Below are positions 9,222-45,312 of a DNA stretch of 54,146 nucleotides, piece by piece. The notes below the pieces were generated by a model. That model worked only from the letters and a program-made list of their open reading frames with translations. It was not told the origin of the DNA and did not search any database. The first letter of the stretch is position 1; each line of letters starts with the position of its first letter. The position numbers were made by a program, and so were the translations under genes. The stretch is from Nitrospinae bacterium RIFCSPHIGHO2_02_FULL_39_82 (lineage in GTDB: Bacteria > Nitrospinota > Nitrospinia > UBA9942): positions 1 through 54,146 of the forward strand of contig MHDI01000083.1 of the NCBI GenBank assembly GCA_001804915.1, written 5' to 3'.

Positions 9222-10508
9222 ATGAAAAAGTTAAAGGCTATTTTGGGATTTTCCCTTTCAATTTTTATCTTATTTGTAACAGCCTCAAATGTAAATGCAA
9301 TAACTGCGTGGGGGAGAAAGTATGGGGTAAGCTGTAATGTCTGTCATATTGCAGGTTATAAACTAACATATGCGGGGCAGCAGTTTTTAAGACACGGGCA
9401 TCAGTTGCCCGGGGCTGAATCAAAAGAGGCAAACATGTCTGACTATTTCTCAATAACAATGAAAATCCGTGCATGGGATAAAAATACCACAGTTCAGCAA
9501 TCAGGAACTGCAGACGCAATTACGACAAAAAATTCCTTTGAGGCGCATGCATTAAGCGTATATTCAGGTGGTCCCCTTGACAGCGGTTTTACATATTTTA
9601 CAGAGATGTATCTGCACGAAAATGAACGGAAAAACCCAGCGGAAAATTATGAAGCAACCGAGTCTGATATGGGTGACTGGGCGAGGTCAAAATTGGCAGA
9701 GGCTTATCTTCAATACGGATATGAAAAAGATGATTTATATTTCACTGCAAGGGCAGGACGAATAATGCCGTGGCTGATACATCTGCATGGTGGCGGTGCG
9801 AGATTAGAATACTCAAGACCATTACCTTTAACTTCAACAGTTGGAGATAACCCTTACCGCCCGTTTTCAAGACAATTTGGTGTAGGTGCCGGTGTCGGCT
9901 ATGGAGAGCTGTTCTTTGAAGCTGGCGTAGTAAATGGGACAGGAAAATATGAAAATACTGTTGAGATCGGAACTGACAAGGCTAAGGACATATATGCATC
10001 CCTTGATTATTCCATTGGGGATAACGGCAGTATGGTTGGATTATATTATTATAATGGCCAGTATCCATTAGATTTATCATATATTCAAAAAGATTTAACT
10101 ACTTTAAAAAAGGCTGAAACCGCTGATAAATTCAATCAGATAGGTATAATGGGGCAATATGTAGCCGAATATGGCGCTTTAATCGCAGCATATTTTAATG
10201 GTTCGGATTCGTATACACCCCTTAATGGAACTTCTGAGACTACATACAAATCTCAAAGCTACTATGCTGAACTTCAGGGCTACTTTAATGATGGTGCCCT
10301 TTCACCCTATTTAAGATGGGAGTACTTTGACCCGGATACAGACAAGTCTGACAGCAGTGAAAAGTCAGGACCTGTACTTGGAATCCATTGGAAACCATTT
10401 GAGCATGGAAGATTTGTGCTGGAGGCATCAAACTATACTACTGCCAACTCTTCAACCAAAAAGACAATAGAAAGAGATATAACATTAGAGGTGCAGTTTA
10501 TGTTCTAA
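9222..10508 (+). CDS. predicted outer-membrane beta-barrel protein with N-terminal CxxCH haem-c motif
   Basis: Signal peptide MKKLKAILGFSLSIFILFVTASNVNA (the ORF track starts at 9189, but the internal Met is the more plausible start). CNVCH lies at mature residues about 12-16. Alternating amphipathic Tyr/Gly-rich strands and a C-terminal ...LEVQFMF ending in Phe are typical of OMP barrels. Confidence 0.5.
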   Translation: MKKLKAILGFSLSIFILFVTASNVNAITAWGRKYGVSCNVCHIAGYKLTYAGQQFLRHGHQLPGAESKEANMSDYFSITMKIRAWDKNTTVQQSGTADAITTKNSFEAHALSVYSGGPLDSGFTYFTEMYLHENERKNPAENYEATESDMGDWARSKLAEAYLQYGYEKDDLYFTARAGRIMPWLIHLHGGGARLEYSRPLPLTSTVGDNPYRPFSRQFGVGAGVGYGELFFEAGVVNGTGKYENTVEIGTDKAKDIYASLDYSIGDNGSMVGLYYYNGQYPLDLSYIQKDLTTLKKAETADKFNQIGIMGQYVAEYGALIAAYFNGSDSYTPLNGTSETTYKSQSYYAELQGYFNDGALSPYLRWEYFDPDTDKSDSSEKSGPVLGIHWKPFEHGRFVLEASNYTTANSSTKKTIERDITLEVQFMF

Positions 10509-10577: not shown

Positions 10578-10922
10578 ATGTTTAGTAAAAATGGAGAAAC
10601 AAAACTAATTCTTTTATGTTCAGTGATTTTTATGCTCCTTGTCTCATTTGCAACTGCCACAGAGGATGGTAAGAAGATTTATGAAAAGAAGTGTACCACA
10701 TGCCATGGAAAAGAGGGGAAAGGTAATGCAGCACTGTTAAAGACGCTCAAAGTTAATGCATCCCTTCTTGACCTGCTGGACAAAGGGACACTGGAAAAAT
10801 CGGATGAGGAGCTTATATCCATAATCTCTAAGGGGATAAACAAGATGCCTGCCTATGGAAAAAATTTAAAGGATGAAGAGATAAAGGATGTTATATCCTA
10901 CATTCGTTCTTTAGTAAAATAG
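10578..10922 (+). CDS. class I monohaem cytochrome c (c553/c6-like)
   Basis: Signal peptide. Single CTTCH haem motif and distal Met ligand region KMPAYG. 114 aa. Confidence 0.75.
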   Translation: MFSKNGETKLILLCSVIFMLLVSFATATEDGKKIYEKKCTTCHGKEGKGNAALLKTLKVNASLLDLLDKGTLEKSDEELISIISKGINKMPAYGKNLKDEEIKDVISYIRSLVK

Positions 10923-10992: not shown

Positions 10993-12450
10993 TCACATCT
11001 TTGCAGTACATACCCTGTTTCTACCGCTCTTTTTTGCATCGTAGAGGGCATCATCTGCCATTTTTATCAACTCAAGTTTATCATTAACATTGTCACTCAA
11101 TTTTGCTACTCCCATACTGATAGTTACCTTTAATGGCTCTTTTTCTGCTTTGAAGTTATGAGATTCCATAAGTTTTCTTATCTTCTCAGCTATATTAACT
11201 GCATTATTAATATTTGTATTGGGTAATATTGTAGCAAATTCCTCTCCGCCATATCGGGCAGGAAAATCTATCTTACGAATATTCTCTTTAATAATAGATG
11301 CAACCTCTTTAAGGACACTGTCTCCCTGAAGATGTCCATAGGTATCGTTAATTAATTTAAAATGGTCTATATCCATCACAATCAATGACAAGGCACTATT
11401 AGACCTTCTCCCCCTTTCAATCTCCCTATCAAAGACTTCAAGGAAATAACGTTTATTGTAAAGACCTGTAAGACCGTCTGTTATAGATAATTCCTTTGTC
11501 TCGTCATATAAAAGCATTAACTTAATAACCATAGAAAAATCATGGGCAAGAAGGTGAATAATATTTTCAGACTCCTGCGTAAAGGTATTCCGCATTACAG
11601 CAAAGAAAAATAGATAACCAATGCATTCATTATAGATATTTAATGGGACAATTATTTGCGAGGCTATCTTATTAATCGTCTTATTGTCTATTCCCATACT
11701 GCCCCTGATAAAATAAGTTTCACAATCTCTCTCTTTGCTATCCTTAATACCAAAAGTGCATAAATGATTTTTTATCGTATCTATATCTTCATCTGATAAA
11801 GGCTGTTTCAAATCAAAATACAGACTCGTCTTATTGGCATTAAGAAGACAGATACATAGACCTGAATAATCAATAAGGCTATTTGCAAGAACTGTAAGCT
11901 CTTTCAAAAGGTCATCTCTGCTGTAAATAAAATTAGCGAGGTGCCTTGCCTCATTAGAAAGTGTTGACTCAAAGAGCAGCTTATCGAGAAGTCTATTCAC
12001 ATTAGACTTTATCATCTTCCAATCCGCATCTTTTTTTGAGTCGGTAACATTGATTTTTCTATCCCCGGCCGGTTGAACAATCTTATTCAGAAGTTGATTA
12101 ACAGCCTCTTTTAAAGGAGATAATTCTGAGCTTTTAACTATATATTGGTCTGCCCCTGCCCGTATTCCCCAGAATCTGTCCTGTCTCTGGTCTAAACTGG
12201 TGAGGAGGATTATAGGAATATGGACAGTCTTTTTGTCATTTTTCAAGAGTCTGCACAACTGGTAGCCATTTAACTCCGGCATCATTATATCTGAAATAAT
12301 AAGGTCTGGTTTATCTGAAAACGCCCTGCTGACACCCTCCAATCCGTCGCTGGCAGTTATAACTTCAAATCCTTCCTTTTCAAATGCCATCTGGAGACTA
12401 ACGAGCTGTGTCCTGCTATCATCAACAATCAATATCTGTTTACCATCCAT
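10993..12450 (-). CDS. response regulator receiver - (middle domain) - GGDEF diguanylate cyclase
   Basis: N-terminal REC (ILIVDDS ... DLIISDIMMP ... K). C-terminal GGDEF with an intact RYGGEEF active-site motif and RxxD-like region. Last gene of the chemosensory operon, analogous to WspR. Confidence 0.85.
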   Translation of the reverse strand: MDGKQILIVDDSRTQLVSLQMAFEKEGFEVITASDGLEGVSRAFSDKPDLIISDIMMPELNGYQLCRLLKNDKKTVHIPIILLTSLDQRQDRFWGIRAGADQYIVKSSELSPLKEAVNQLLNKIVQPAGDRKINVTDSKKDADWKMIKSNVNRLLDKLLFESTLSNEARHLANFIYSRDDLLKELTVLANSLIDYSGLCICLLNANKTSLYFDLKQPLSDEDIDTIKNHLCTFGIKDSKERDCETYFIRGSMGIDNKTINKIASQIIVPLNIYNECIGYLFFFAVMRNTFTQESENIIHLLAHDFSMVIKLMLLYDETKELSITDGLTGLYNKRYFLEVFDREIERGRRSNSALSLIVMDIDHFKLINDTYGHLQGDSVLKEVASIIKENIRKIDFPARYGGEEFATILPNTNINNAVNIAEKIRKLMESHNFKAEKEPLKVTISMGVAKLSDNVNDKLELIKMADDALYDAKKSGRNRVCTAKM

Positions 12451-12531
12451 ATAGCTACCTGTTTTTTACCTATTTTCCGTTTTTCCAATTTTATTTTGCA
12501 TTTCCCATCCTGATTAATTAGTGTGAATTAA

Positions 12532-13608
12532 TCAATTTTTTGTTATGCCCCATTTATTTATCTCTCTGGGAATCTCTTCTACAGAACATACCTTCGTTGA
12601 TGCACCATTTTCAATTGCTGCCTTCGGCATACCAAAGATGGCTGAACTCGCCTCGTTCTGGGAAATTGTCACCCCCCCTGCCTTTCTGATTGCCATCATA
12701 CCATTTGCACCGTCATTGCCCATGCCTGTCAACACAATCCCCAGACATTTATCCTTATACGCTAAAGCTGCTGACTCCATCAAAAAGTTAATAGAAGGCC
12801 TATGTCCTAAAATTGGAGGCGTATTACTTAAAAACAATTTTCTATGTTTGGTTATTCCAAGGTGATGATAATCAGGGGCAAAATAGACAAAACCTTTTCG
12901 GATATCTTCGTTATCTTTTCCTACTTTTATCTTCAGCTGACAATTCTTCTGCAACCATTCAATAAGCCCATTTACAAAACCATATGCAATATGTTGAGTA
13001 ATAACTATGGGAAAAGGAAAGAGGAGAGAAATTTCTTTGAGAATATAGTTTAGCACCGGCGGACCTCCGGTTGAGGCACCTATAACCAGAACTCCATCCT
13101 GTGATTTTTCGCCAGCATTTTTTATATTATTATCTTTTTTAAAAGGGATATCTGCCTTTTTCTTCCTTTTATCTATGGAGATATCCAAATATTTACTGAT
13201 TCTTTTAAAAGGACGGAACTTGGCTACCGTTTTAACACCCCTGATAAGTTCCTCCCCGATTATCTGGAGGGGAACTCCTTCTTTCTGTCTTGGTTTTTCT
13301 ATGACATCAAGGGCCCCTGCCTTTAAGGCATTAAAACCTATATCAAGTTCACTTTTAACCAGAGAGCTTACAACCAATATGGAAGTGGGTATATTTTCCA
13401 TAATATATTCAGTCGCCTCAAGGCCATTCATAACAGGCATATGTATATCCATAGTAATTACATCAGGTCTCAGGAGCTTTGTCTTCTCAATACATTCACG
13501 ACCATCTTTTGCCAATCCAACGACCTGTATCTCTGAATCAGAATTCAGTATCATCTTTATAAATTCTGAAGATAGCTTTGAATCTTCTGTAATCAATACC
13601 CTTATCAT
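12532..13608 (-). CDS. cheB: chemotaxis response regulator protein-glutamate methylesterase CheB
   Basis: REC domain (IRVLITEDS ... DVITMDIHMP) followed by a CheB methylesterase domain (GASTGGP, catalytic region). Confidence 0.9.
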   Translation of the reverse strand: MIRVLITEDSKLSSEFIKMILNSDSEIQVVGLAKDGRECIEKTKLLRPDVITMDIHMPVMNGLEATEYIMENIPTSILVVSSLVKSELDIGFNALKAGALDVIEKPRQKEGVPLQIIGEELIRGVKTVAKFRPFKRISKYLDISIDKRKKKADIPFKKDNNIKNAGEKSQDGVLVIGASTGGPPVLNYILKEISLLFPFPIVITQHIAYGFVNGLIEWLQKNCQLKIKVGKDNEDIRKGFVYFAPDYHHLGITKHRKLFLSNTPPILGHRPSINFLMESAALAYKDKCLGIVLTGMGNDGANGMMAIRKAGGVTISQNEASSAIFGMPKAAIENGASTKVCSVEEIPREINKWGITKN

Positions 13609-16298
13609 ATCAACCTCTTTATCGTCTCAAGAAGATTAGACTGGTCAAAGGAACTCTTGACAATATATGCATCAGCCCCTACTTCTATCCCCTTTTTTTT
13701 ATCCTCCATTGATTCAAGAGCTGTAACAAGGATAACAGGAATATGTTTATATTTTTCGCTCTGCTTTATCTCTTCTGTCAATTCCAATCCATTCATGTTA
13801 GGCATCTGAACATCGCTGACGATAATATCAAAATCCCTGTTTTGAAGTTTTAAAAGGGCATCCTGCCCATCAACAGCCATTTCAACATAATATCCATAAG
13901 ATTCAATAATATTCTTTTCAAGGGTTCTTGTCATAAGAGAATCATCAACTACCAGAACTGACAATTCTTTTTCTATTTCTTCCCTCTTTCCCCTCTTCTT
14001 CGGTGAGGCTATTCCCCTTAGTTGAACGGTATTAATTATATCGGTAACATTAAGGACAGGGGCAATATTGCCATCACGCATAATTGTTACACCTGATACA
14101 TTCCTGACCCTTCTCATATAATTCCCAAGTCCTTTAATAAGTATCTTCTCTTCGCCCATAAATTTTTCTATACCAAGGGCTGCAAGGTTTTCTCCAGACC
14201 TCAAAACAACAACAGGTCTTTTTACATCAGTATAATCCCCGCCTTCCTCTTCAGGAATCTCAAGTACTGAGGATAAACGAACATATGGGATAAATGAGTT
14301 AAAATAATGCAATGCCGGAAAACCTTCAACAATCGGTAAGTCATCTTCTGATATACTGATTATCCTCTCCACCATAGCTACAGGCAGAAAATATATCCCG
14401 TCAGAAACTGATATCTTAAGGGATTGAGTTGTGCTTAATGTCAGAGGAATTGTCATTGCAAATGTGGTCCCTTTGTTTTTTACAATTTCTATATCTATAG
14501 TCCCATTCAGCTTTTCAATATTATCCTTAACCACATCCATCCCAACACCCCTTCCAGAAATATCCGTAATAATATCACTGGTAGAAAAACCCTGATGAAA
14601 AATGATATTCAGTATCTGCCTTTCTTTCATCAGGCTGAGTTCTCTTTCAGAGTAAAGCCCCTTTTTGATAGCAGATGTTTTTATCTTTTCTATATCAATC
14701 CCTTTACCATCATCTGAAATCTTAATAAGGGCATTATTCCCTTTATAAGAAACATCTACACGGATAGTCCCTTCCTCTCTCTTTCCGAGTTTGACCCTCT
14801 CCTCAGGTATTTCAATTCCATGGTCAATGCAATTCCGAATTACATGCATCAGAGGGTCCTTAATTTCTTCAAGTATAAATTTATCCAACTCAACATCCTC
14901 TCCTGAGACCTTTAATTTTATCCTCTTCTTTAAAGAGGCTGAGAGGTCTCTCACCATCCTCGGGAACAGGTCCAGAACAGTCTTTATGGGGAAGATTCTC
15001 GTCTTCTTCACATCATCCTGTAGTTTTTCTATTATATTGGATAACTGCCGGTAATCATCATAAAATGTCCTGTAGAGCGATTCAATCCGTTCAGATATAA
15101 AAGAAAACTTCTCTCTTAACTGGGAGGTGTGATTATTATCTGCAGGGAATTTATCTATATCCAGCCTTTTATGACCGCCCCCTTTCTTAATAATCCTGCC
15201 CAGTGTATTAAAGTCCTCAATTATAGACTGAATATCCATAAGACGCTGGTGTGCCCTCAATGTCATAATTATCAATTCGCTGGTTTGCTCCATAAGATTG
15301 TCAAGCTTTTCAAAACTAATTCTCACGGTGCCTTTTTGCTGGGTGGTTCCGTGGAGGGGGGGTATTTTATTTCCGGCAGGTGTTGTCCCAATGTTTAAGG
15401 TCTTTGGCTTTTTTACATCTCCATCTTCTGATTTTTTGAGAGAGGTTATTAAAGAATCTATAGAAGAGAGGACACCTTTGAAATCAGGAGTGGTCTTAGT
15501 CTCTCCTCCTGTTTCTATCTGGTCTATAAAGGTCTTTATGAAATCAGCTCCTCTAAGTAGTGTGGTAATCACACCAGAGGTAATCTGAATCCTTTTATCT
15601 AAAATCCCCTCTACAGCACGTTCTATAGAAAATGAAATGTCCCCCATATCTTTATGCTTTATAATTCTGGCACTCCCCTTAAGGGCGTGTGCCTGTTCGT
15701 AGGCATTCTCTATCTCCTTTCTATCGTCAGGGTTCTTTTCAATTTTAACTAAACTATCTATCAGCATTTGAATTGCATCATCTGTCTCCTGCAAAAAGAG
15801 GTTGACATCCCTGTCACCACCCGAGTCTTCAAAAGATTCAGTGGATTTTTTCACATCAGAATCTGCCCCTTGATTTTCTGACTGTATATTATGTATATGA
15901 CCTTCTGAAACCTCTGTTAATTGATTAAGAAGCAGGGGAATCCCTGTCTCTCCTTCTTCTACACCGGTTTTAGAAATCCTGTTGACAATCAATCCTACAG
16001 TATCAAGGCTCTTCAAAATGAGGCTGATAATTTCACGGGAAAGGGGTATTTCATTTTTCTTTATTTTTCCAAGGATGGTCTCCATCTTATGAGCTATATT
16101 TTCAATGGAGGTAAAACCTAACATCCTTGCTGCACCTTTCAGGCTGTGTACCTCACGAAAGACCTCTTCAATCAGACCTGATTGGTCAGGATTTTCGTCA
16201 AGGGAGATAAGACCTGAATTTAATTTCTGGATGTGTTCATCACACTCTATTTTGAAAATCCCGAAAAGCCTGTTAAAATCCTCTCTGCTTAAATCCAT
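13605..16298 (-). CDS. cheA: hybrid histidine kinase CheA with C-terminal receiver domain
   Basis: Two Hpt-like regions (HSLKGAARMLGF, AHALKGSARII), HATPase_c, a CheW-like domain, and a C-terminal REC (LVVDDSLMTR ... DIIVSDVQMP). 4-bp overlap with cheB. Confidence 0.9.
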   Translation of the reverse strand: MDLSREDFNRLFGIFKIECDEHIQKLNSGLISLDENPDQSGLIEEVFREVHSLKGAARMLGFTSIENIAHKMETILGKIKKNEIPLSREIISLILKSLDTVGLIVNRISKTGVEEGETGIPLLLNQLTEVSEGHIHNIQSENQGADSDVKKSTESFEDSGGDRDVNLFLQETDDAIQMLIDSLVKIEKNPDDRKEIENAYEQAHALKGSARIIKHKDMGDISFSIERAVEGILDKRIQITSGVITTLLRGADFIKTFIDQIETGGETKTTPDFKGVLSSIDSLITSLKKSEDGDVKKPKTLNIGTTPAGNKIPPLHGTTQQKGTVRISFEKLDNLMEQTSELIIMTLRAHQRLMDIQSIIEDFNTLGRIIKKGGGHKRLDIDKFPADNNHTSQLREKFSFISERIESLYRTFYDDYRQLSNIIEKLQDDVKKTRIFPIKTVLDLFPRMVRDLSASLKKRIKLKVSGEDVELDKFILEEIKDPLMHVIRNCIDHGIEIPEERVKLGKREEGTIRVDVSYKGNNALIKISDDGKGIDIEKIKTSAIKKGLYSERELSLMKERQILNIIFHQGFSTSDIITDISGRGVGMDVVKDNIEKLNGTIDIEIVKNKGTTFAMTIPLTLSTTQSLKISVSDGIYFLPVAMVERIISISEDDLPIVEGFPALHYFNSFIPYVRLSSVLEIPEEEGGDYTDVKRPVVVLRSGENLAALGIEKFMGEEKILIKGLGNYMRRVRNVSGVTIMRDGNIAPVLNVTDIINTVQLRGIASPKKRGKREEIEKELSVLVVDDSLMTRTLEKNIIESYGYYVEMAVDGQDALLKLQNRDFDIIVSDVQMPNMNGLELTEEIKQSEKYKHIPVILVTALESMEDKKKGIEVGADAYIVKSSFDQSNLLETIKRLI

Positions 16299-16323
16299 TT
16301 TCCTCTCCTGACATCTGATTCAA

Positions 16324-17907
16324 TCATACATCACTTTCAGAATCCATACCCTCATCCATAAGCTCCTCCGTCTCCTTCTGAATCTCACGCCTCATTTTTC
16401 TTCTATCTACAAGTTTTTGGAGCTGCTGAATGATAACGATATAATCCTTGGTAGCAGTACTTGACTCATGCATACCCCTGTTAATCTGAACCATAGCCTG
16501 CTCTACCTGCTCGGTTGCAGACGATTCCTGACGGGATGCAATGGCAATTTCATTTGCAGCCTCGGCTGTGGATTTTATTGTATTTATAGCATTATTGATT
16601 GTTGAACCTGCCTCCATAACATGATTTACCCCGATATCCACCTTTTTCCCACCTTCTTCAGTAGTCATAACCGTAGTGTTGACAGAGTCCTGAATATCAT
16701 GAATCAGAGAGGCAATTTTTTCTGTTGCCTTTTTACTCTGGTCTGAAAGAGAGCGAACCTCGGAGGCAACAACAGCAAACCCCCTCCCCTGCTCACCTGC
16801 CTTTGCAGCCTCAATCGCAGCATTTACGGCAAGCATATCAGTTTTGTTGGCAATATCCTCAACTACATTAATGATTGCCCCAATCTGATTGGTCTTTTCG
16901 CTGAGGGTCAAAACATTTTCTGCAATATCTGTTACCTTCTTTTTTATCAAATTCATCTCGGAGATGCTATTCTCAACTGCCTTCTGTCCCTCGTAAGTTA
17001 CAGAAAGTGCCTCATTGGCTTGACTTGATAATGATTCTGCCCTCGCACTGATTTGTTTGGATGATACATTCAATTCTTCAATAGCTGCGGTAATCTGGTT
17101 AACTGCTGTTGCCTGCTGAGAGGTAATTTTATCCTGGTTATCCGCCGCATTTGATATCTTGAAGATTGCCCTTGTCAAGGGTTTTATTATTTCCCTGTTT
17201 ATCAAAATATTCATAATAATACCAACCAAAACTATAACAATAAATACTGAAACAACCGCCCACAGAATACTACTCCTTATGTTATTAACTAATTCCCTCT
17301 TGGAAATTGATATCTGAAGGATGCCGCGAACAGGGTTTTTATCATAATCATGACATGCATCACAACGTTCATCCTTAATAATTGGAATAAGCCTTGTATT
17401 AACAGGCTCACCATTCATCTCTTCCTCATAGGATACCTCAATTTTACTATCTATCACTTTCTTAAGTCTCTGGATATTCTCTTCCTCAAATTCTTTTGGG
17501 GGCTCAGAAACAGCCTTCCGTGGAAATGTCTCACTTCCAAGATATTTATTGACATCATTAACAGTCTCATTATCAATAAATGCCTCTACACCGCTTTTGC
17601 GGAAAATTCTTATTTTCTTGAGGCCGGGAGTATTTCTAACCTCGGCAAGCCAATCCCTGACAATTTCTGCATTGCCTGATACCATTATAACCTTAACCCC
17701 CTTGGAGATTGCAGAAGAGAGAAAATCTACTTTACCCTCTTCAATCCTTTTCATATCTCTGATATTGCCTTTAATAGAAAAAACAGATATGATGCCAAGC
17801 CCGATAGCGAGGGTTAATGTTATAATAACCATTAGCTGCCGCTGCACCTTATTTTTACTGAAATATGAAGATAATTTCATAATTTTCCTCCCTTTAAACC
17901 TCCTCAT
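16324..17907 (-). CDS. methyl-accepting chemotaxis protein with CxxCH (haem-c) periplasmic sensor domain
   Basis: TM1 at about aa 25-45 and TM2 at about aa 213-235. CDACH motif between them at about aa 183-187 (nt about 17350-17364). C-terminal MCP signalling domain (LAVNAAIEAAKAGEQGRGFAVVASEVR). Confidence 0.85.
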   Translation of the reverse strand: MRRFKGRKIMKLSSYFSKNKVQRQLMVIITLTLAIGLGIISVFSIKGNIRDMKRIEEGKVDFLSSAISKGVKVIMVSGNAEIVRDWLAEVRNTPGLKKIRIFRKSGVEAFIDNETVNDVNKYLGSETFPRKAVSEPPKEFEEENIQRLKKVIDSKIEVSYEEEMNGEPVNTRLIPIIKDERCDACHDYDKNPVRGILQISISKRELVNNIRSSILWAVVSVFIVIVLVGIIMNILINREIIKPLTRAIFKISNAADNQDKITSQQATAVNQITAAIEELNVSSKQISARAESLSSQANEALSVTYEGQKAVENSISEMNLIKKKVTDIAENVLTLSEKTNQIGAIINVVEDIANKTDMLAVNAAIEAAKAGEQGRGFAVVASEVRSLSDQSKKATEKIASLIHDIQDSVNTTVMTTEEGGKKVDIGVNHVMEAGSTINNAINTIKSTAEAANEIAIASRQESSATEQVEQAMVQINRGMHESSTATKDYIVIIQQLQKLVDRRKMRREIQKETEELMDEGMDSESDV

Positions 17908-18544
17908 TTATAATCAATCTTTCATCATTAAGAAGTCCTTCAGTGTCTATTATTAAAAGAGGGGTATTATTGACACTTGCCTCATATTTTATAATTTTAT
18001 TTTTATCCTGAAAAAATGATGAAACAGGTTTAACACCATCAACGGACAATTCAATAAGACTGTCAAATCTATCTATTACAACACCTGCCCTGTTGTTTAA
18101 ATGTTCAAGAATGAGAATTTTATGCGGCAAACCTTTAGTGAATTTTGAGTCCTCATTACTGCCCATATCTTTCTGCAGCTTAAATAAAACATTCAGATTT
18201 ATAATGCTCAAAATGGTTCCTCTGTAATTTATCAATCCAGAGAGGACAGGTGAAGTGCAGGGGATTCTGGTAATAATATCATATTCATACACCTCCTTAA
18301 GATACTTTACCTCTATACCAAATAGTTCACCTGCCACATAAAAAGAGATAAACTTCAACAGGGTTTTATCATCCCTATAATCTGCTTTGGCAAGACTTAA
18401 CTTCTCGGCACGCTCCTTAAATATCCTCTCCTTCTCATCCTTTGAGACTTCCCTGATGGAGTTGGATTTTTTTTGGAGTTCTTCTGCCCTTTTTCTGAAT
18501 TTTATCCAAATAGTGTCATCCAATATCTGCATGGCAAACATCAA
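17894..18544 (-). CDS. CheW-like coupling protein (WspB/WspD-like)
   Basis: 216 aa with a CheW-like domain in the C-terminal two-thirds (FGIEVKYLKEVYEY ... GLINYRGTILSIINL). Overlaps both neighbouring genes. Confidence 0.7.
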   Translation of the reverse strand: MMFAMQILDDTIWIKFRKRAEELQKKSNSIREVSKDEKERIFKERAEKLSLAKADYRDDKTLLKFISFYVAGELFGIEVKYLKEVYEYDIITRIPCTSPVLSGLINYRGTILSIINLNVLFKLQKDMGSNEDSKFTKGLPHKILILEHLNNRAGVVIDRFDSLIELSVDGVKPVSSFFQDKNKIIKYEASVNNTPLLIIDTEGLLNDERLIINEEV

Positions 18545-18980
18545 GCCCCAGTAATTCTTCCCTTTCTTTGAGGGTTAGAATGTTATCCAAATTCAAAACG
18601 ACAGTTAACTGTTTATCAACCTGAACTGCCGCATACATATATTTGACATCAATTCCATTTAACATTTCGGGCGGAGGTATAAACTGGTCTTCATATACAT
18701 CTATAACATATAAAACCCTGTCAACAATGAGTCCTGTTATGGTGTCATGAAAATTCACAATAATGACTGTATCATTAAGTTCATCTGACTTGCTTTTCAA
18801 TCCAATACGCTTTCTTAAATCTACCACAGGGACAGCGGCTCCCCTTAAATTAATAATTCCACGGATAAAAGAGGGGAGATTTGCAAGTGGAGTAATATAT
18901 GGCAATGGTATAATCTCTTCAACATTCTTTACATCAAGGGAATAGCGGGCATTTTCTAAAAGGAATACAATGAGATTCAT
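18516..18980 (-). CDS. cheW: chemotaxis coupling protein CheW
   Basis: 154 aa, canonical CheW domain (YSLDVKNVEEII ... GIINLRGAAVPVVDLR). Confidence 0.85.
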   Translation of the reverse strand: MNLIVFLLENARYSLDVKNVEEIIPLPYITPLANLPSFIRGIINLRGAAVPVVDLRKRIGLKSKSDELNDTVIIVNFHDTITGLIVDRVLYVIDVYEDQFIPPPEMLNGIDVKYMYAAVQVDKQLTVVLNLDNILTLKEREELLGLDVCHADIG

Positions 18981-20542
18981 GCTGTTCTGACCCTAAGTTC
19001 CACTAAGCCTAAAAGGGCTCCAACTGTTAAATCCTCAGGCTGAAAAATGATTTCATCCGCCTTCTTTGAACCCAGCATATCTCTTACGATATTATAATAC
19101 TTCTCTGCCTGTGTCCTGAGTCGTTTTAACATATAAATATTGCCCAAAACAAAGTAGCCAATAATGAAGTTCTGGTCTATGTAGATAGCCTTTTTTATAT
19201 CACTCTCTGCCTCATTAAGCTCCCCCTTTGCTAAATGTATTAATGAAAGGGTATAATATGGTTCTTTATAAAGGGGATTAATCTTAATAGAACGTTCTGC
19301 CCAGGCAAGTGCCTCCTCAAAATATCCCCTGTTAGCTGCAATATAAGAAAGCATCCATGATGCCCTTATATTAGAGGAATTAATATCAAGAATCCTCAAA
19401 AAATACTCTATAGCCTGTTCATATTTTTTTTCATTATAATATCTTATTGCCTCGCTGAACAATTCCGTCTCTTCACTATTGATTTTGCGATGTTCATTAA
19501 AAGATAGATTTTTTTGCCCTGATAAACCATTTTTTTCTTTCACCAATTTTATAAAATCATCTTTTTTGACAGAACTTTTTCCTTTACCACCCCCTAAAGA
19601 TAAAGGTTTAGAGACGAGGGATATGCGATTATCAGGTACTTCCTTCCCATTTTTCTGATAAACTATTGCCTGGGGGAAAACCCTTGGCTTGAATAAGGCA
19701 TAATTTTCAGAGGAGTGCTCGGCATGTCCAACAATCAGATACCCGCCAGGTTCCAGCACATTATGAAACTTATTGGCAAGCCTTATGGTTGTTTCTTTTT
19801 CAAAATATATTGTTACATTCCTGCACATAATAAGGTCAAATTTTCTGTTCTCTTTTCCAGAATCTGGTGGATAATCCGAGATAAGGTTATTTCCAACAAA
19901 TTTAACAAAGGGCTTATATTCCTCTTTGATTTTATATTTATCTCCCTTTTTGATGAAACAGTTATTAATAATATCTGTATCTACTCCCCTGAATGACCAT
20001 TTTTTATATTCCCCCTTCATTGCCCTTTGAAGGACATTCTCATCTATATCAGAGGCAATGATAAATACCTTCCATGTTTCAATTTGAGGGATAAGTTTTT
20101 TAAGCAGAATGGCAATTGAATAAGGTTCTTCACCTGTTGAACAGCCAGCACTCCAGATGGATAGTGTTCTTGAGGTGGTAGCTTCTCTTGAAATTAATTC
20201 TGGTAAAATACATTTTTTCAGTAAATCAAAGTGCGGTTTCTCTCTAAAAAAGAATGTCTCCCTCGTTATCAACAAAGAAGTCAGCTTCCTCAAATGCCCC
20301 TCTCCCCTCTTTGAACGAAGGTAAAGCATATAGGCACCAAAATCAATATTTTTAGAATCTAAAAAATTGGAAATTATGAGTTTTTCTATTGAAAAAAACT
20401 TTGATTCTGGAAAAAAGAGGCCTGTCCTCTCTTGAATAAAATCACGAAGTGAAAGGAGATTATCTTTAGTGATAATTTTATTTAACATTCTATGTTTAGT
20501 TAATTCACACTGAAAAGTGACATTTTTTTCACCGTACACCAA
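18977..20542 (-). CDS. cheR: CheR-type MCP methyltransferase with C-terminal TPR domain (WspC-like)
   Basis: CheR N-terminal and SAM-binding methyltransferase domains (IWSAGCSTGEEPYSIAIL ... DLIMCRNVTIYF). C-terminal about 170 aa of TPR repeats. 4-bp overlap with cheW. Confidence 0.85.
   Translation of the reverse strand: MVYGEKNVTFQCELTKHRMLNKIITKDNLLSLRDFIQERTGLFFPESKFFSIEKLIISNFLDSKNIDFGAYMLYLRSKRGEGHLRKLTSLLITRETFFFREKPHFDLLKKCILPELISREATTSRTLSIWSAGCSTGEEPYSIAILLKKLIPQIETWKVFIIASDIDENVLQRAMKGEYKKWSFRGVDTDIINNCFIKKGDKYKIKEEYKPFVKFVGNNLISDYPPDSGKENRKFDLIMCRNVTIYFEKETTIRLANKFHNVLEPGGYLIVGHAEHSSENYALFKPRVFPQAIVYQKNGKEVPDNRISLVSKPLSLGGGKGKSSVKKDDFIKLVKEKNGLSGQKNLSFNEHRKINSEETELFSEAIRYYNEKKYEQAIEYFLRILDINSSNIRASWMLSYIAANRGYFEEALAWAERSIKINPLYKEPYYTLSLIHLAKGELNEAESDIKKAIYIDQNFIIGYFVLGNIYMLKRLRTQAEKYYNIVRDMLGSKKADEIIFQPEDLTVGALLGLVELRVRTA
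20497..20532 (+). repeat. REP/MITE-terminus-like repeat (tagttaattcacactgaaaagtgacattttt)
   Basis: Near-identical to 21278-21312 in direct orientation. In inverted orientation it matches the end of the 41893-42075 element (cattttccagtgtgaattaa). Confidence 0.6.
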
Positions 20543-20702
20543 ATAATCAGAATCGGGGCAAAAAATAGCCTATTTTTGCATTTCCATATAATTTACCCCA
20601 TAAAGACAGGTAAGTCAAAATATTTTTAGAATGGGAGACTTATACAACTATTTGACTTTGCTGAAATTTTATGATATTTTCCTTTAAAAACTGGGAGGGG
20701 AT

Positions 20703-21281
20703 ATGAGTACCTTTAAGGACCAACTGTTTCAGGAGTATGCCACAAAGGGTCTTGACAGACTCCGTTCAGAACTTCGCAATAAATATAAACCTAAAAAGGA
20801 GAATCGTTTTGATTACAAAAACATTACCTATGAAATCGGGGCAATAAAGACATGCAGGGAAGGCTTAGAGTTTGAGATAAGTTCCAAGATACCTCTCGAA
20901 CTGCTTTCACCTAATACATCCAAGAAAAAATACTTCAATTATGTAAAAGATATCATGCTTAAAAAGGATAAAACTCCTTTAACGGTTAATATGGAAAACA
21001 TTGTTACAACCTTAAGCGAGAACGAAAAAAAAGAGAGGGACTATGTAAAACTGACATATGTATATTCTGAGGATGAACTCTACAATAGCGATGAAATTAC
21101 AAAAAATGTAGAGAGGTTGAAGAAAAACCCTGCAGGTATTCCGGCTATCTCTGGCGTAACAACTATATTTGGAAAACTTGTTCTCGTATCCATTGAAGAA
21201 ACAATTTATAAAAATGCAAAAGAGAATATAAACTCTTTCATAGATGCAAATGAGGAGGCAAGGAAAAAATACTGTAGTTAA
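20703..21281 (+). CDS. hypothetical protein (192 aa), flanked by direct repeats
   Basis: No recognisable domain. Bracketed by two copies of the about 35-bp repeat at 20497 and 21278. Confidence 0.45.
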   Translation: MSTFKDQLFQEYATKGLDRLRSELRNKYKPKKENRFDYKNITYEIGAIKTCREGLEFEISSKIPLELLSPNTSKKKYFNYVKDIMLKKDKTPLTVNMENIVTTLSENEKKERDYVKLTYVYSEDELYNSDEITKNVERLKKNPAGIPAISGVTTIFGKLVLVSIEETIYKNAKENINSFIDANEEARKKYCS

Positions 21282-44387: not shown

Positions 44388-45312
44388 TGGGGTCAGGTCT
44401 TTACTTTTACTATTTATTATTTACAATCCGGCTTATTGTCGTATAATACAGCCCAAGATAATCGGCAACCTCTTTCTGGCTGTAGCCATATTTATTAACC
44501 GCTTTTTTTATATGTGTGTTCCTATTTCTTTTATTCAACAACATTTCTCTTATAAAGATTTCTTTAAGTGCAGGTCTGTTTATGTATCTCTGACTCTTTG
44601 GTATTTCTTTGATGTCCTCATGTCCTTTTATATATCCAGTTAGTTTTTCTACAAACTTATCACTCCCAAGGATGCTCTGACCTTTCACATCTTCCCATAT
44701 CCCCTTCTCTCCTATCTTCGCTCCTACAAATTCCTTGTATCTCTTTTCTGCTGTCCTTTTCTGTTTTGCAAACTGACCTAATATCCACTCTGTTGTTAAA
44801 CAAGGATGTGACTTGTCTTTCCCCACTGTTGCACGGTAATTGCTCCACTTCCAATCCTCAACATTCTTTACGGCTTTTGCCCGCACAGGGTTTAAAACTA
44901 CATACCGGCAAACCTCAAGTAAATGACTCTCTTTCTGTATGAGTATTGCCTTGTATCTGCCCTGAAATATATGACCTGTCCGCTCATGTCTCTTATTGAA
45001 TGTTTGAGTATATAATCCGTTTAACTGCCTCATCCCCTTTGAGAGATTGCCATCCGGGGTTTCTATAATAAGATGGTAATGATTATCCATCAGGCAATAA
45101 GCATGGCATATCCAGTTGTATCTTTGATTTACCTTATGAAGTGTGGAAAGAAAGACATTGCGGTCTGCATCGTCTTTAAAGATAGGCTTTCTTTCATTGC
45201 CTCTTGAGGTAAGATGATACACAGCCCCATTGTATTCAATTCTCAATGGTCTTGCCATGAAATATATTATACATACCTAAAACATAATAGCAAGATTAAA
45301 GACCTGACCCCA
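44388..45312 (-). mobile_element. compact IS200-like / RAYT-like element with imperfect terminal inverted repeats
   Basis: tggggtcaggtctttac at 44388-44404 and its near reverse complement ttaaagacctgacccca at 45296-45312 bracket the transposase ORF. Confidence 0.6.
44410..45258 (-). CDS. IS200-like Y1 (HUH) transposase with extended C-terminal HTH-like region
   Basis: HuH motif HYHLII and catalytic Tyr context QGRYKAILI in the N-terminal about 140 aa. C-terminal about 130 aa extension, as in the long RAYT/IS200-like family. Confidence 0.8.
   Translation of the reverse strand: MARPLRIEYNGAVYHLTSRGNERKPIFKDDADRNVFLSTLHKVNQRYNWICHAYCLMDNHYHLIIETPDGNLSKGMRQLNGLYTQTFNKRHERTGHIFQGRYKAILIQKESHLLEVCRYVVLNPVRAKAVKNVEDWKWSNYRATVGKDKSHPCLTTEWILGQFAKQKRTAEKRYKEFVGAKIGEKGIWEDVKGQSILGSDKFVEKLTGYIKGHEDIKEIPKSQRYINRPALKEIFIREMLLNKRNRNTHIKKAVNKYGYSQKEVADYLGLYYTTISRIVNNK

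What the first reader, a model, noticed from the sequence alone, without database searches (positions are those of the whole stretch)
10993..20542. Complete Wsp-like chemosensory operon with a haem-c (CxxCH) chemoreceptor and a diguanylate cyclase output
The minus-strand genes run in the order CheR-TPR, CheW, CheW-like, MCP, CheA-REC hybrid, CheB, REC-GGDEF. The junctions at 18977/18980 and 13605/13608 overlap by 4 bp, which indicates translational coupling. Content and domain architecture match the Pseudomonas Wsp system (WspC is a CheR with TPR; WspE is a CheA-REC; WspR is a REC-GGDEF). That system controls c-di-GMP and biofilm formation rather than flagellar switching. Here the sole MCP carries a CDACH motif (nt about 17350-17364) in its roughly 165-aa periplasmic domain, between TM1 and TM2. 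Covalent haem c in a chemoreceptor sensor domain is rare. It is known for Geobacter GSU0582/GSU0935-type sensors and Desulfovibrio DcrA. This suggests a periplasmic redox or small-ligand (O2/NO) sensing pathway that sets c-di-GMP levels. The DGC also has an extra roughly 180-aa middle domain that WspR lacks.
Basis: partly seen in the sequence, partly recalled or inferred. Interest (0 to 1): 0.72.

Follow-up and report, generated by a model that had tools for sequence, protein, structure and literature searches.

The report
Haem-sensing chemosensory operon driving c-di-GMP synthesis
This is a real, conserved seven-gene signalling operon in an uncultured Nitrospinota bacterium that most likely converts a periplasmic haem-based redox or nitric-oxide signal into synthesis of the biofilm messenger c-di-GMP; every part is of a known type and only the combination appears undescribed.

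Summary
Seven co-directional minus-strand genes (10993-20542) encode CheR-TPR, CheW, CheW-like, one MCP, CheA(2xHpt)-REC, CheB and REC-X-GGDEF. There are ATGA overlaps at 18977/18980 and 13605/13608.

The MCP's CDACH (aa 182-186, nt 17350-17364) lies between two TM helices. The sensor passes Pfam PF21563 (Geobacter GSU0582/GSU0935 haem-c sensor). Its only PDB sequence hits and its best fold hits are 3B42 and 3B47. Cys-x-x-Cys-His is invariant in 31 orthologues/paralogues and 76 distant relatives. Met75 aligns with the Geobacter distal haem ligand Met60.

The DGC has intact GGEEF, RxxD and REC residues. Its extra middle domain is a divergent GAF.

The operon recurs in four other Nitrospirota-type contigs, two of which lack cheB. 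A HAMP-bearing sister version occurs in one more.

- It is Wsp-like (ACF class), not Wsp proper. Gene order, phylum and DGC architecture fail the Wsp criteria.
- Haem-c Cache sensors are now a large described family that is common in these phyla, not rare.
- This MCP clade lacks a HAMP domain.

Verdict: a new variant of a known kind, of moderate interest. Function is inferred only.

The parts
18977..20542 (-). cheR-TPR: CheR methyltransferase domain (aa 95-285, nt 19688-20260) fused to C-terminal TPR repeats (aa ~352-484, nt 19091-19489). The ORF opens at TTG 20542; the likely true start is ATG 20488 (Met19).
   Evidence: Pfam CheR 8.8e-53 and TPR_2/TPR_8/TPR_1 above cut-off. Orthologue tblastn matches begin at residue ~20.
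18516..18980 (-). cheW (154 aa). Its start overlaps the cheR stop by 4 bp (ATGA).
   Evidence: Pfam CheW 1.4e-30; junction read.
17894..18544 (-). Second cheW-like gene (216 aa): a ~60-aa charged N-terminal extension followed by a CheW domain (aa 65-208).
   Evidence: Pfam CheW 5.6e-21. No family was found for the N-terminal 73 aa.
16324..17907 (-). The sole MCP of the operon (527 aa as ORF; probable start Met10 at 17880, giving 518 aa). Layout: TM1 - periplasmic haem-c sCache sensor - TM2 - signalling hairpin with no HAMP domain.
   Evidence: Pfam MCPsignal 9.7e-38 and PF21563 at 32.5 bits against a cut-off of 27. No HAMP hit. The His186-to-tip-Phe377 spacing is exactly 191 aa in all 27 orthologues, against 247 in HAMP-bearing paralogues.
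17275..17766 (-). Periplasmic sensor domain (aa 48-211), sCache_heme / Mcp40H-20_sensor type.
   Evidence: Hydropathy. The only PDB sequence hits are 3B47 and 3B42. The AF2 model has pLDDT 81. Best Foldseek PDB hits are 3B42/3B47, then sCache domains of KinD and WalK.
17350..17364 (-). CDACH haem-c attachment motif (Cys182, Cys185, proximal ligand His186).
   Evidence: Position. Invariant in 31/31 and 76/76. Aligned with CQSCH of 3B47/3B42. In the model it sits at the end of a short helix between two strands, as described for the family (PMC12889525).
17683..17685 (-). Met75, the candidate distal axial haem ligand.
   Evidence: Aligns with chain residue 26 of 3B47, which is Met60 in protein numbering (offset 34 derived from His109 = His143). 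That alignment stretch is not significant on its own (i-Evalue 17). Invariant in 31/31 and conserved in >=90% of 76 distant relatives.
13605..16298 (-). cheA-REC hybrid kinase (897 aa): Hpt1 (His51), Hpt2 (His204), dimerisation domain, HATPase_c, CheW-like domain, C-terminal REC (Asp829).
   Evidence: Pfam Hpt (2 stretches), H-kinase_dim, HATPase_c, CheW and Response_reg. HxLKG motifs at 51 and 204 and DVQMP at 829.
12532..13608 (-). cheB methylesterase with N-terminal REC (358 aa). Its start overlaps the cheA stop by 4 bp.
   Evidence: Pfam CheB_methylest 6e-56 and REC 2.6e-19. NCBIfam CheB subfamily NF001965 scores 331.7 bits against a cut-off of 293. Motifs found.
10993..12450 (-). Output diguanylate cyclase, REC-GAF-GGDEF (485 aa): REC nt 12082-12450 (Asp54), GAF-like nt 11482-12033, GGDEF nt 11005-11481, RxxD I-site nt 11266-11277, GGEEF nt 11236-11250.
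   Evidence: Pfam GGDEF 4.6e-49 and REC 4.6e-24. AF2 pLDDT 85 with a GAF-type alpha/beta topology at aa 140-323. GAF_2 scores E 0.018 here, and 6/46 family members hit GAF significantly. Foldseek finds PleD, WspR, DgcR and the GAF-GGDEF protein Dcsbis. Catalytic and regulatory residues are conserved.
20590..20618 (-). Possible sigma-70-like promoter upstream of cheR (TTGACT-17-TAAATT). Weak evidence only.
   Evidence: Consensus scan. The number of such sites in the region is not above the shuffled expectation.

Best explanation
[quoted passage not shown] Its output is c-di-GMP synthesis, not flagellar switching.

Proposed mechanism:
1. The single receptor carries a periplasmic single-Cache domain with a covalently bound c-type haem (Cys182/Cys185 thioethers, His186 proximal ligand, Met75 distal ligand).
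2. By analogy with Geobacter GSU0582/GSU0935, oxidation of the haem, or binding of NO/CO, displaces the Met ligand and changes the haem spin and coordination state.
3. That change is passed through TM2 directly into the receptor's signalling hairpin. There is no HAMP domain, and the register from haem ligand to hairpin tip is fixed.
4. Two CheW-type adaptors couple the receptor to the CheA-REC hybrid kinase. CheA autophosphorylates on an Hpt histidine (His51 and/or His204).
5. Phosphate is transferred to Asp54 of the REC-GAF-GGDEF protein. Its GGEEF site then makes c-di-GMP, with product inhibition through the RxxD I-site.
6. CheR-TPR and CheB methylate and demethylate the receptor, so the c-di-GMP response adapts to the background level of the signal.

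Shown here: gene content, domain architecture, conservation of all ligand and catalytic residues, predicted topology, and conservation of the gene cluster across lineages.

Inferred: haem attachment, the nature of the signal, the direction of the response, the phosphotransfer route, and the downstream phenotype (probably attachment or biofilm).
For: - Domain content.
- Topology and motif position.
- Sensor family: PF21563 is above its gathering score. The only PDB sequence hits are 3B47/3B42, with CxxCH aligned. The AF2 model's best fold hits are 3B42/3B47.
- Haem ligands: Cys/Cys/His are invariant and Met75 is conserved. Met75 corresponds to Met60, the redox-switched distal ligand.
- Motif across the sensor family: 145 of the 149 best-scoring listed hits carry CxxCH, and the other 4 are fragments.
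- Cluster conservation: the same gene order occurs in L081, L082, L084 and L085 amid different flanking genes.
- Sister operon: a version with a HAMP-bearing PF21563 MCP and a 47%-identical REC-GAF-GGDEF occurs in L087.
- Output assignment: more distant REC-GAF-GGDEF relatives (38-40% identity) also sit next to an MCP, CheA-REC and CheW in L086 and L088. This DGC family is therefore a dedicated chemosensory output.
- Catalytic competence: DGC catalytic, I-site and phospho-acceptor residues are invariant.
- Pathway class: CheR-TPR plus a multidomain response regulator marks ACF pathways (PMC3447774).
- Motility: no CheY, CheZ, flagellar or pilus genes were found among the ORFs scanned up to 50037.
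- Cytochrome c capacity: a class-I cytochrome c gene lies next to the operon, so the organism makes c-type cytochromes.
Against: - Nothing is experimental. The organism is an uncultured groundwater MAG.
- Sequence similarity of the sensor to the solved Geobacter domains is weak (E 0.007-0.011, 15-18% identity).
- The Met75 = Met60 equivalence rests on a low-scoring alignment stretch (i-Evalue 17) plus conservation.
- Signalling-type sCache_heme proteins tested so far behave as NO sensors and do not form stable O2 complexes (PMC12889525). The physiological signal could therefore be NO rather than redox potential.
- cheB is missing from two orthologous operons, so adaptation may not be essential.
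- CheA's own REC domain and second Hpt domain may make the phosphorelay more complex than drawn.
- The role of the GAF domain is unknown, and few of its residues are invariant.
- The rest of the genome was not available to check for ccm genes, other che clusters or motility genes.
Confidence: 0.7

Rival explanations
1. The pathway is the same, but the receptor is a dedicated nitric oxide (or other diatomic gas) sensor rather than a redox-potential sensor. NO would displace Met75 or His186, and the pathway would set c-di-GMP in response to nitrosative or N-cycle signals.
For: Signal-transduction-fused sCache_heme proteins have NO off-rates like H-NOX/NosP and form no stable O2 complex (PMC12889525). 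GSU0582/GSU0935 bind NO in both redox states (PMC8396549). The host is labelled Nitrospinae/Nitrospinota, a phylum of nitrite oxidisers (my own knowledge), where NO would be a plausible cue.
Against: The invariant distal Met is the hallmark of the redox-linked Met-on/Met-off switch of the Geobacter proteins. The Pseudomonas NO sensor that was studied is described as lacking the axial Cys and as having a water-like sixth ligand. The two readings are not mutually exclusive.
Confidence: 0.3
2. c-di-GMP is not the main output. In this view the REC-GAF-GGDEF protein is a side branch or phosphate sink, and the pathway mainly controls motility (flagella or pili) or gene expression through an unlinked CheY-like protein or through the REC domain of CheA.
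For: CheA carries its own REC and two Hpt domains, as in multi-step relays. Related ACF clusters swap the output for a histidine kinase (L001) or a nucleotide cyclase (L043). The rest of the genome was not inspected.
Against: The DGC gene is the last gene of the operon in all five orthologous loci, and in L087. It stays linked to CheA-REC even in rearranged clusters of other phyla. Its phospho-acceptor and catalytic residues are invariant. No single-domain CheY is encoded in the cluster.
Confidence: 0.1
3. The CxxCH does not bind haem. It would instead be a metal site, a disulphide, or a relic, and the Cache domain would sense a small organic ligand like ordinary sCache receptors.
For: No haem-binding data exist for this protein. 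The fold also resembles the cofactor-free sCache domains of KinD and WalK.
Against: Cys-x-x-Cys-His is invariant in 76/76 relatives down to 24% identity, and 145 of the 149 listed hits carry it while the other 4 are fragments. These are the only cysteines in the protein. The motif is periplasmic, where cytochrome c maturation acts. The family is defined by covalent haem, with 99% motif conservation and solved haem-bound structures.
Confidence: 0.04
4. It is a true orthologue of the Pseudomonas/Burkholderia Wsp system and senses surface contact or envelope stress.
For: The seven-protein composition is the same, including CheR-TPR, CheA-REC and REC-GGDEF. The receptor carries the four-heptad insertion relative to 36H receptors that the 40H class (to which WspA belongs) also has.
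Against: The gene order is not wspA-F. The host is outside the beta/gamma-proteobacteria, to which syntenic Wsp systems are confined (PMC8552884). The sensor is a haem-c Cache domain. The DGC has a GAF insert that WspR lacks. The closest other clusters found are ACF systems of cyanobacteria, Leptospiraceae and unclassified MAGs with other outputs.
Confidence: 0.03

Closest known systems
Pseudomonas Wsp system (WspA-F, WspR)
   Same: Both have one dedicated MCP, two CheW-type adaptors, a CheR with a TPR domain, a CheA-REC hybrid, CheB, and a REC-GGDEF output with an I-site. Both are chemosensory pathways with a c-di-GMP output and methylation-based adaptation. Both receptors appear to be 40H-type.
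   Different: The gene order is CheR-W-W-MCP-A-B-DGC rather than MCP-W-R-W-A-B-DGC. The host is Nitrospinota, not a beta/gamma-proteobacterium. The receptor has a haem-c Cache sensor and no HAMP domain. CheA has two Hpt domains. The DGC has a GAF domain between REC and GGDEF (485 aa, against the 334-358-aa WspR chains in the PDB).
Geobacter sulfurreducens MCPs GSU0582 / GSU0935 (PDB 3B47, 3B42; Pfam PF21563; sCache_heme family)
   Same: Both have a periplasmic PAS/Cache-like sensor between two TM helices, a CxxCH on a short helix between two strands, a His proximal ligand, a conserved Met distal ligand, and a fusion to an MCP signalling domain.
   Different: Sequence identity is only about 15-18%. 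The Geobacter receptors have a HAMP domain and were described without an assigned pathway. Here the receptor has no HAMP and is embedded in a dedicated ACF operon with a DGC output.
ACF-class chemosensory clusters marked by CheR-TPR and multidomain response regulators (Munoz-Martinez et al. 2012, PMC3447774)
   Same: It fits the published description: CheR-TPR in a cluster whose response regulator fuses REC to GGDEF, sometimes with GAF or PAS.
   Different: That survey did not describe haem-c receptors. The present clade pairs one particular sensor type with one particular DGC family.
One-component sCache_heme-HAMP-GGDEF proteins
   Same: The same sensor family is linked to c-di-GMP synthesis. 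Of the 75 nearest sensor relatives, 19 carry GGDEF.
   Different: Those proteins are direct fusions without a kinase relay or methylation-based adaptation.
HtChe2 Wsp-like pathway of Halomonas titanicae (bioRxiv 10.1101/2024.04.09.588698; abstract only)
   Same: It is a chemosensory pathway with a single dedicated receptor that controls a diguanylate cyclase.
   Different: Its receptor (Htc10) binds purine derivatives and has no cofactor-based sensor.
PleD (REC-REC'-GGDEF) of Caulobacter
   Same: PleD is the best PDB match to the DGC in both sequence and fold. Both have a phospho-REC, an adaptor domain, GGEEF and an RxxD I-site.
   Different: The adaptor here is GAF-like, not a second receiver domain. 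The upstream kinase is a CheA, not PleC/DivJ.

Membership tests
Wsp system sensu stricto (Kessler et al. 2021, PMC8552884) | Seven-protein composition: MCP, two CheW, CheR, CheA-REC, CheB, REC-GGDEF | tested here: met
   Pfam domains of the seven ORFs.
Wsp system sensu stricto (Kessler et al. 2021, PMC8552884) | Conserved wspA-wspF synteny (MCP, CheW, CheR, CheW, CheA, CheB, then wspR) | tested here: not met
   The order here is CheR, CheW, CheW, MCP, CheA, CheB, DGC, and it is the same in L081, L082, L084 and L085.
Wsp system sensu stricto (Kessler et al. 2021, PMC8552884) | Host among the beta- or gamma-proteobacteria | tested here: not met
   The proteins match exactly those of Nitrospinae bacterium RIFCSPLOWO2_02_FULL_39_110. 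Orthologues are labelled Nitrospirota or Manganitrophaceae.
Wsp system sensu stricto (Kessler et al. 2021, PMC8552884) | At least 30% identity to the P. fluorescens Pf0-1 / B. cenocepacia Wsp proteins | not tested
   No Wsp reference sequences were available apart from WspR in the PDB. For WspR only the GGDEF domain aligns by sequence, and Foldseek gives 23% identity over the whole chain.
Wsp system sensu stricto (Kessler et al. 2021, PMC8552884) | WspR architecture: REC, coiled-coil stalk, GGDEF | tested here: not met
   The protein is 485 aa with a ~185-aa GAF-like domain between REC and GGDEF.
ACF-class chemosensory pathway (Wuichet & Zhulin 2010, as cited in PMC3447774) | CheR fused to TPR repeats | tested here: met
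   CheR 8.8e-53 plus TPR_2/TPR_8/TPR_1 above cut-off.
ACF-class chemosensory pathway (Wuichet & Zhulin 2010, as cited in PMC3447774) | A multidomain response regulator as output, and no single-domain CheY or CheZ/CheC/CheD/CheV in the cluster | tested here: met
   A REC-GAF-GGDEF protein is the only stand-alone response regulator besides CheB. The neighbouring genes are housekeeping genes.
ACF-class chemosensory pathway (Wuichet & Zhulin 2010, as cited in PMC3447774) | Assignment by the class-specific CheA/CheW/CheB/CheR HMMs used in MiST | not testable with these tools
   The class HMMs are not in the available libraries. Indirect support: the nearest non-orthologous clusters (32-35% CheA identity) are CheA-REC clusters with REC-HK or REC-cyclase outputs.
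sCache_heme / Mcp40H-20_sensor (PF21563; GSU0582/GSU0935 type) | Match to the family profile above the curated threshold | tested here: met
   PF21563 scores 32.5 bits for the full protein and 35.1 bits for the domain alone, against a gathering score of 27.
sCache_heme / Mcp40H-20_sensor (PF21563; GSU0582/GSU0935 type) | Strictly conserved CxxCH on a short helix inserted between two beta-strands of a Cache fold | tested here: met
   C182/C185/H186 are invariant. In the model they lie at the short helix between strands 124-134 and 150-159. The best fold hits are 3B42/3B47, then sCache domains.
sCache_heme / Mcp40H-20_sensor (PF21563; GSU0582/GSU0935 type) | Extracytoplasmic location | tested here: met
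   Two hydrophobic segments flank aa 48-211, and the N-terminus is basic. This is a prediction only.
sCache_heme / Mcp40H-20_sensor (PF21563; GSU0582/GSU0935 type) | Distal Met ligand equivalent to Met60 of the Geobacter sensors | tested here: met
   Met75 aligns with Met60. It is invariant in 31/31 and conserved in >=90% of 76 relatives. The alignment stretch itself is weak (i-Evalue 17).
sCache_heme / Mcp40H-20_sensor (PF21563; GSU0582/GSU0935 type) | Covalently bound haem c | not testable with these tools
   This needs haem staining or spectroscopy of the expressed domain.
Active, product-inhibited diguanylate cyclase (GGDEF, PleD/WspR type) | GG(D/E)EF active site, Mg/GTP-binding residues and an RxxD I-site five residues upstream | tested here: met
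   GGEEF 401-405, RKID 392-395, N332, D360, D362, K473 and R477 are invariant or nearly so in 46 homologues. The base-specificity position is Asp341 (D/E in the family), not the Ser of cGAMP-making Hypr GGDEFs. The Hypr rule is from my own knowledge of Hallberg et al. 2016.
GAF domain (middle domain of the DGC) | Significant match to a GAF profile and a GAF fold | tested here: inconclusive
   This protein matches GAF_2 only at E 0.018, below threshold. Six of 46 full-length homologues hit GAF/GAF_2/GAF_3 at up to 3e-8. The AF2 topology is GAF-like, and the GAF-GGDEF protein Dcsbis (4ZMU) aligns over 357 columns. The domain alone was not fold-searched.
40H class of MCP signalling domains | Twenty heptads per arm, i.e. 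two extra heptads per arm relative to 36H receptors | tested here: inconclusive
   Alignments to the E. coli Tar/Tsr and Vibrio Aer2 models span 28 more residues here (221 vs 193, 226 vs 198, 228 vs 200). This is consistent with 36H plus four heptads. No heptad-class HMMs were available, and the N-arm runs straight into TM2.

The most novel reading that the evidence does not exclude
A distinct, conserved module exists in Nitrospinota and Nitrospirota, including relatives of Mn-oxidising Manganitrophaceae. In it a haem-c Cache chemoreceptor without HAMP reads periplasmic redox state or NO. Through a CheA-REC relay with methylation-based adaptation, it tunes a dedicated REC-GAF-GGDEF cyclase. 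This would be an adapting, gradient-type controller of c-di-GMP that ties attachment or biofilm formation to the cell's extracellular electron-transfer or N-oxide environment. It would also be the first Wsp-like pathway whose physical stimulus is predictable from the receptor's cofactor.
Probability: 0.3. Interest if true: 0.6.

Novelty: new variant of a known kind. Interest (0 to 1): 0.4.

Why it matters
The signal sensed by Wsp-type (ACF) chemosensory pathways is generally unknown or disputed. Here the only receptor of the pathway has a cofactor-based sensor whose chemistry (a redox-linked Met-on/Met-off switch, NO/CO binding) has already been worked out in Geobacter homologues. The input is therefore predictable and can be tested in vitro even though the organism is uncultured.

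The operon also shows that haem-c Cache sensors, so far linked to taxis receptors, kinases or direct GGDEF fusions, can feed an adapting chemosensory relay that sets c-di-GMP. This occurs in environmentally important lineages (Nitrospinota, Nitrospirota). In GenBank these proteins are annotated only as 'hypothetical protein'.

Tried and rejected
It was salvaged only as a set of comparison clusters by local tblastn. Orthologous loci were obtained through the look-up of encoding contigs instead.
2. The betaproteobacterial and Pseudomonas loci among those hits might have been wsp operons. Their CheA matches lack the REC part, so they were not used as Wsp references.
3. A conserved divergent neighbour of cheR (window 20703-21281 against the 188-aa gene in L081) shows no similarity. 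It was rejected as part of the system.
4. A Hypr-GGDEF (cGAMP synthase) reading of the output was prompted by the Geobacter REC/GAF GGDEF entry 6D9M. It was rejected because the specificity position is Asp/Glu, not Ser.
5. The promoter/terminator scan gave nothing above shuffled expectation.
6. Rfam found only a tRNA far from the operon.
7. Literature searches found no paper that pairs a haem-c MCP with a DGC-output chemosensory cluster. This covers the held library only.
8. The third homologue search and the third fold search were not spent, because no open question required them.

Full report
**Observation.** Pfam confirms every stated domain:
- CheR (8.8e-53) with C-terminal TPR repeats
- CheW (1.4e-30)
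- a second CheW (5.6e-21) with a ~60-aa N-terminal extension that matches no family
- an MCP (MCPsignal 9.7e-38)
- an 897-aa CheA with two Hpt domains, a dimerisation domain, HATPase_c, a CheW-like domain and a C-terminal REC
- CheB (REC plus methylesterase, 6e-56; NCBIfam CheB subfamily model above its cut-off)
- REC-X-GGDEF (GGDEF 4.6e-49)

The cheR/cheW and cheA/cheB junctions are ATGA overlaps. The remaining junctions are -29, -14, +25 and +81 nt. CDACH is at aa 182-186 (nt 17350-17364) and contains the only two cysteines of the receptor. Hydropathy places TM1 at about aa 25-47 and TM2 at about aa 212-236. The N-terminus is strongly basic, so the 164-aa loop is predicted to be periplasmic. 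Probable true starts are Met10 of the MCP (ATG 17880) and Met19 of CheR (ATG 20488), judged from orthologues.

**Source.** The proteins are identical to entries from 'Nitrospinae bacterium RIFCSPLOWO2_02_FULL_39_110' and sibling groundwater MAGs. There they are annotated only as hypothetical proteins. The window is otherwise housekeeping: ExbB/ExbD with TPR proteins, pheA/hisC, AddAB-like nucleases, tyrA-cmk, S1, accA, dnaE, guaA, MTHFR and amtB. No flagellar, pilus or other che genes were found among the ORFs scanned, which reach 50037.

**The sensor.**
- The MCP matches Pfam PF21563 (Mcp40H-20_sensor) above its gathering score: 32.5 bits for the full protein and 35.1 for the domain alone, against 27.
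- A phmmer search of all PDB sequences with the periplasmic domain returns only 3B47 and 3B42. These are the haem-c sensor domains of Geobacter GSU0582 and GSU0935, and CxxCH is aligned.
- An AlphaFold model of aa 44-214, built on 30 homologues, has mean pLDDT 81. Its best Foldseek PDB hits are 3B42 and 3B47, followed by the single-Cache domains of KinD and WalK.
- In the model the CxxCH lies at a short helix between two beta-strands. A 2026 preprint describes this as the defining insertion of the 'sCache_heme' family (PMC12889525).
- Cys182, Cys185 and His186 are invariant in 31 orthologues and paralogues down to 40% identity. They are also invariant in 76 sensor-domain relatives down to 24% identity.
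- Of the 149 best-scoring hits in the 1.84-billion-protein representative library, 145 have CxxCH. The other four are fragments truncated before the motif.
- Met75 is invariant in the 31 sequences and conserved in at least 90% of the 76. By the alignment it corresponds to chain residue 26 of 3B47, which is Met60 in protein numbering. That stretch is weak on its own (i-Evalue 17).
- Met60 is the distal ligand that binds the reduced haem and leaves on oxidation or on NO/CO binding (PMC8396549).

Both axial ligands of the characterised sensors are therefore present.

**An unusual feature of the receptor.** There is no HAMP domain. Among the 75 nearest sensor relatives, 69 have HAMP. A paralogous MCP group (P0030-P0037) has a 56-residue HAMP insertion at the corresponding place. 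In all 27 orthologues the distance from His186 to the hairpin-tip Phe377 is exactly 191 residues. The register from haem ligand through TM2 to the kinase-control tip is therefore rigidly conserved. Relative to the E. coli Tar/Tsr models the signalling domain is 28 residues longer. That is consistent with the 40H class, to which WspA also belongs (PMC2577667). No heptad-class models were available to confirm this. Two conserved candidate methylation sites (QQATA at 264, QESSA at 460) fit the presence of CheR and CheB.

**The output.** The 485-aa protein has REC (Asp11, Asp54, Thr84 and Lys106 invariant), a poorly conserved linker, a middle domain (aa ~140-323) and GGDEF. In the GGDEF domain, GGEEF 401-405, RxxD 392-395, Asn332, Asp360/362, Lys473 and Arg477 are conserved in 46 homologues.

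The middle domain matches GAF_2 only at E 0.018. However, six of 46 full-length homologues hit GAF profiles significantly. The AlphaFold model (pLDDT 85) shows a GAF-type helix/strand order. The GAF-GGDEF protein Dcsbis (4ZMU) aligns over 357 columns.

The best overall PDB relatives are PleD, then DgcR and WspR. The base-specificity position is Asp341, and Asp/Glu in the family. This argues against a cGAMP-making Hypr GGDEF (the rule is from my own knowledge of Hallberg et al. 2016).

**Conservation of the system.**
- The same gene order (CheR-TPR, CheW, CheW, PF21563-type MCP, CheA-REC, CheB, ~485-aa REC-GGDEF) occurs in L081 and L082 (MCP 59% and 55% identical). The flanking genes there are unrelated.
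- It also occurs in L084 and L085, Nitrospirota-type assemblies, but without cheB.
- L087 (Nitrospirota) carries a sister operon. It has the HAMP-bearing PF21563 MCP, a fused double CheW, CheA-REC, CheB and a 47%-identical REC-GAF-GGDEF.
- More distant members of the DGC family (38-40% identity, including a Melainabacteria-labelled homologue) also sit beside a short MCP, a CheA-REC and a CheW.

This DGC family is therefore a dedicated chemosensory output. The pairing with a haem-c receptor is a feature of the Nitrospinota/Nitrospirota branch. The nearest non-orthologous clusters have CheA-REC hybrids with other outputs: REC-GAF-like-HK in L001 and REC-adenylate/guanylate cyclase with a dCache MCP in L043. 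This is the modular pattern described for ACF pathways marked by CheR-TPR (PMC3447774).

**Comparison with the known.** In composition the operon equals Wsp. It fails the published criteria for a Wsp system on several counts:
- wspA-F synteny and restriction to the beta/gamma-proteobacteria (PMC8552884)
- the sensor type
- the absence of HAMP
- the second Hpt domain
- the GAF insert in the DGC

It is best filed as an ACF-class, Wsp-like pathway.

The sensor belongs to a family that is no longer rare. The sCache_heme preprint reports over 5,000 curated and about 20,000 PSI-BLAST members, with fusions to MCP, HK and GGDEF/EAL outputs. More than 50% of Nitrospirota genomes have at least one member. 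My own search found 334 representative clusters for this sub-type alone. Direct sensor-HAMP-GGDEF fusions are common among its nearest relatives (19 of 75). The haem-c-to-c-di-GMP logic therefore already exists in one-component form. Here it is routed through an adapting chemosensory relay.

**Mechanism (inferred).** Oxidation of the haem or NO/CO binding displaces Met75. TM2 transmits the change directly to the hairpin. The CheW-coupled CheA-REC changes its autophosphorylation. Phosphate passes to Asp54 of the DGC. The GGEEF site makes c-di-GMP under I-site feedback. CheR-TPR and CheB reset the receptor. Whether the cue is redox potential or NO cannot be decided from sequence. The conserved Met favours the Geobacter-type redox switch. 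The biochemical data on signalling-type sCache_heme proteins favour NO over O2.

**Novelty and interest.** Every component and the general pathway type are known. No paper in the held library describes this combination. I rate it a new variant of a known kind, of moderate interest (0.4). Its value is that the input of a Wsp-like pathway is, for once, predictable and testable in vitro.

**What led nowhere.** The genome-contig scan was consumed by generic MCP motifs. The promoter/terminator and Rfam scans were uninformative. The divergent neighbour gene is not conserved.

Noticed in passing
window 9189-10508 (+): A 439-aa ORF with a signal-peptide-like N-terminus and a single CNVCH haem-c motif near the N-terminus. 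Its C-terminus ends ...LEVQFMF, as in outer-membrane beta-barrels. It matches no Pfam or NCBIfam family. It could be a haem-bearing outer-membrane protein of an undescribed family. It is convergent with the DGC gene.
   Followed up: partly
window 10578-10922 (+): A small class-I cytochrome c (CTTCH; PF13442 2.5e-17, PF00034) lies immediately downstream of the 439-aa CxxCH protein. It shows that the organism matures c-type cytochromes.
   Followed up: partly
L084 11536-15827 and L085 11512-15746: The orthologous operons in two Nitrospirota-type assemblies go straight from cheA-REC to the REC-GGDEF gene and have no cheB, although CheR-TPR is kept. This implies methylation without a dedicated esterase, or a CheB encoded elsewhere.
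   Followed up: partly
L082 16252-19072: In this orthologous locus the DGC gene is followed in the same direction by a multihaem cytochrome (Paired_CXXCH_1), an NHL-repeat protein and a cytochrome c7-like protein. This hints at a link between the pathway and extracellular electron transfer in that lineage.
   Followed up: no
L082 1182-2729 (-): A histidine kinase with a faint PF21563 (haem-c sensor) hit plus HAMP-HisKA-HATPase lies a few kb upstream of the orthologous operon. The same sensor type is therefore used twice in one neighbourhood.
   Followed up: no
window 17894-18544 (-), aa 1-64: The second CheW has a ~60-aa lysine/glutamate-rich N-terminal extension with no family match. In L087 and L043 the two CheW domains are fused into one protein.
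   Followed up: partly
window 187-8025 (-): A run of ExbD, ExbD and ExbB, a 116-aa ORF with no Pfam family match, and three large TPR proteins (358, 963 and 645 aa). It resembles a Tol/Ton-like or gliding/secretion-associated TPR cluster. The 645-aa protein has weak similarity to PorW/SprE.
   Followed up: no
window 44410-45258 (-): An IS200/Y1-transposase-like domain is fused to an HTH domain in a 282-aa protein, next to aldolase and dehydrogenase genes.
   Followed up: no
window 30596-32236 (+): A fused prephenate dehydrogenase-cytidylate kinase ORF (PDH_N/PDH_C plus Cytidylate_kin in one 546-aa product). It is either a real tyrA-cmk fusion or two genes joined by the mechanical ORF call.
   Followed up: no
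window 48317-48402 (+): A single tRNA gene, the only Rfam match in the window.
   Followed up: no
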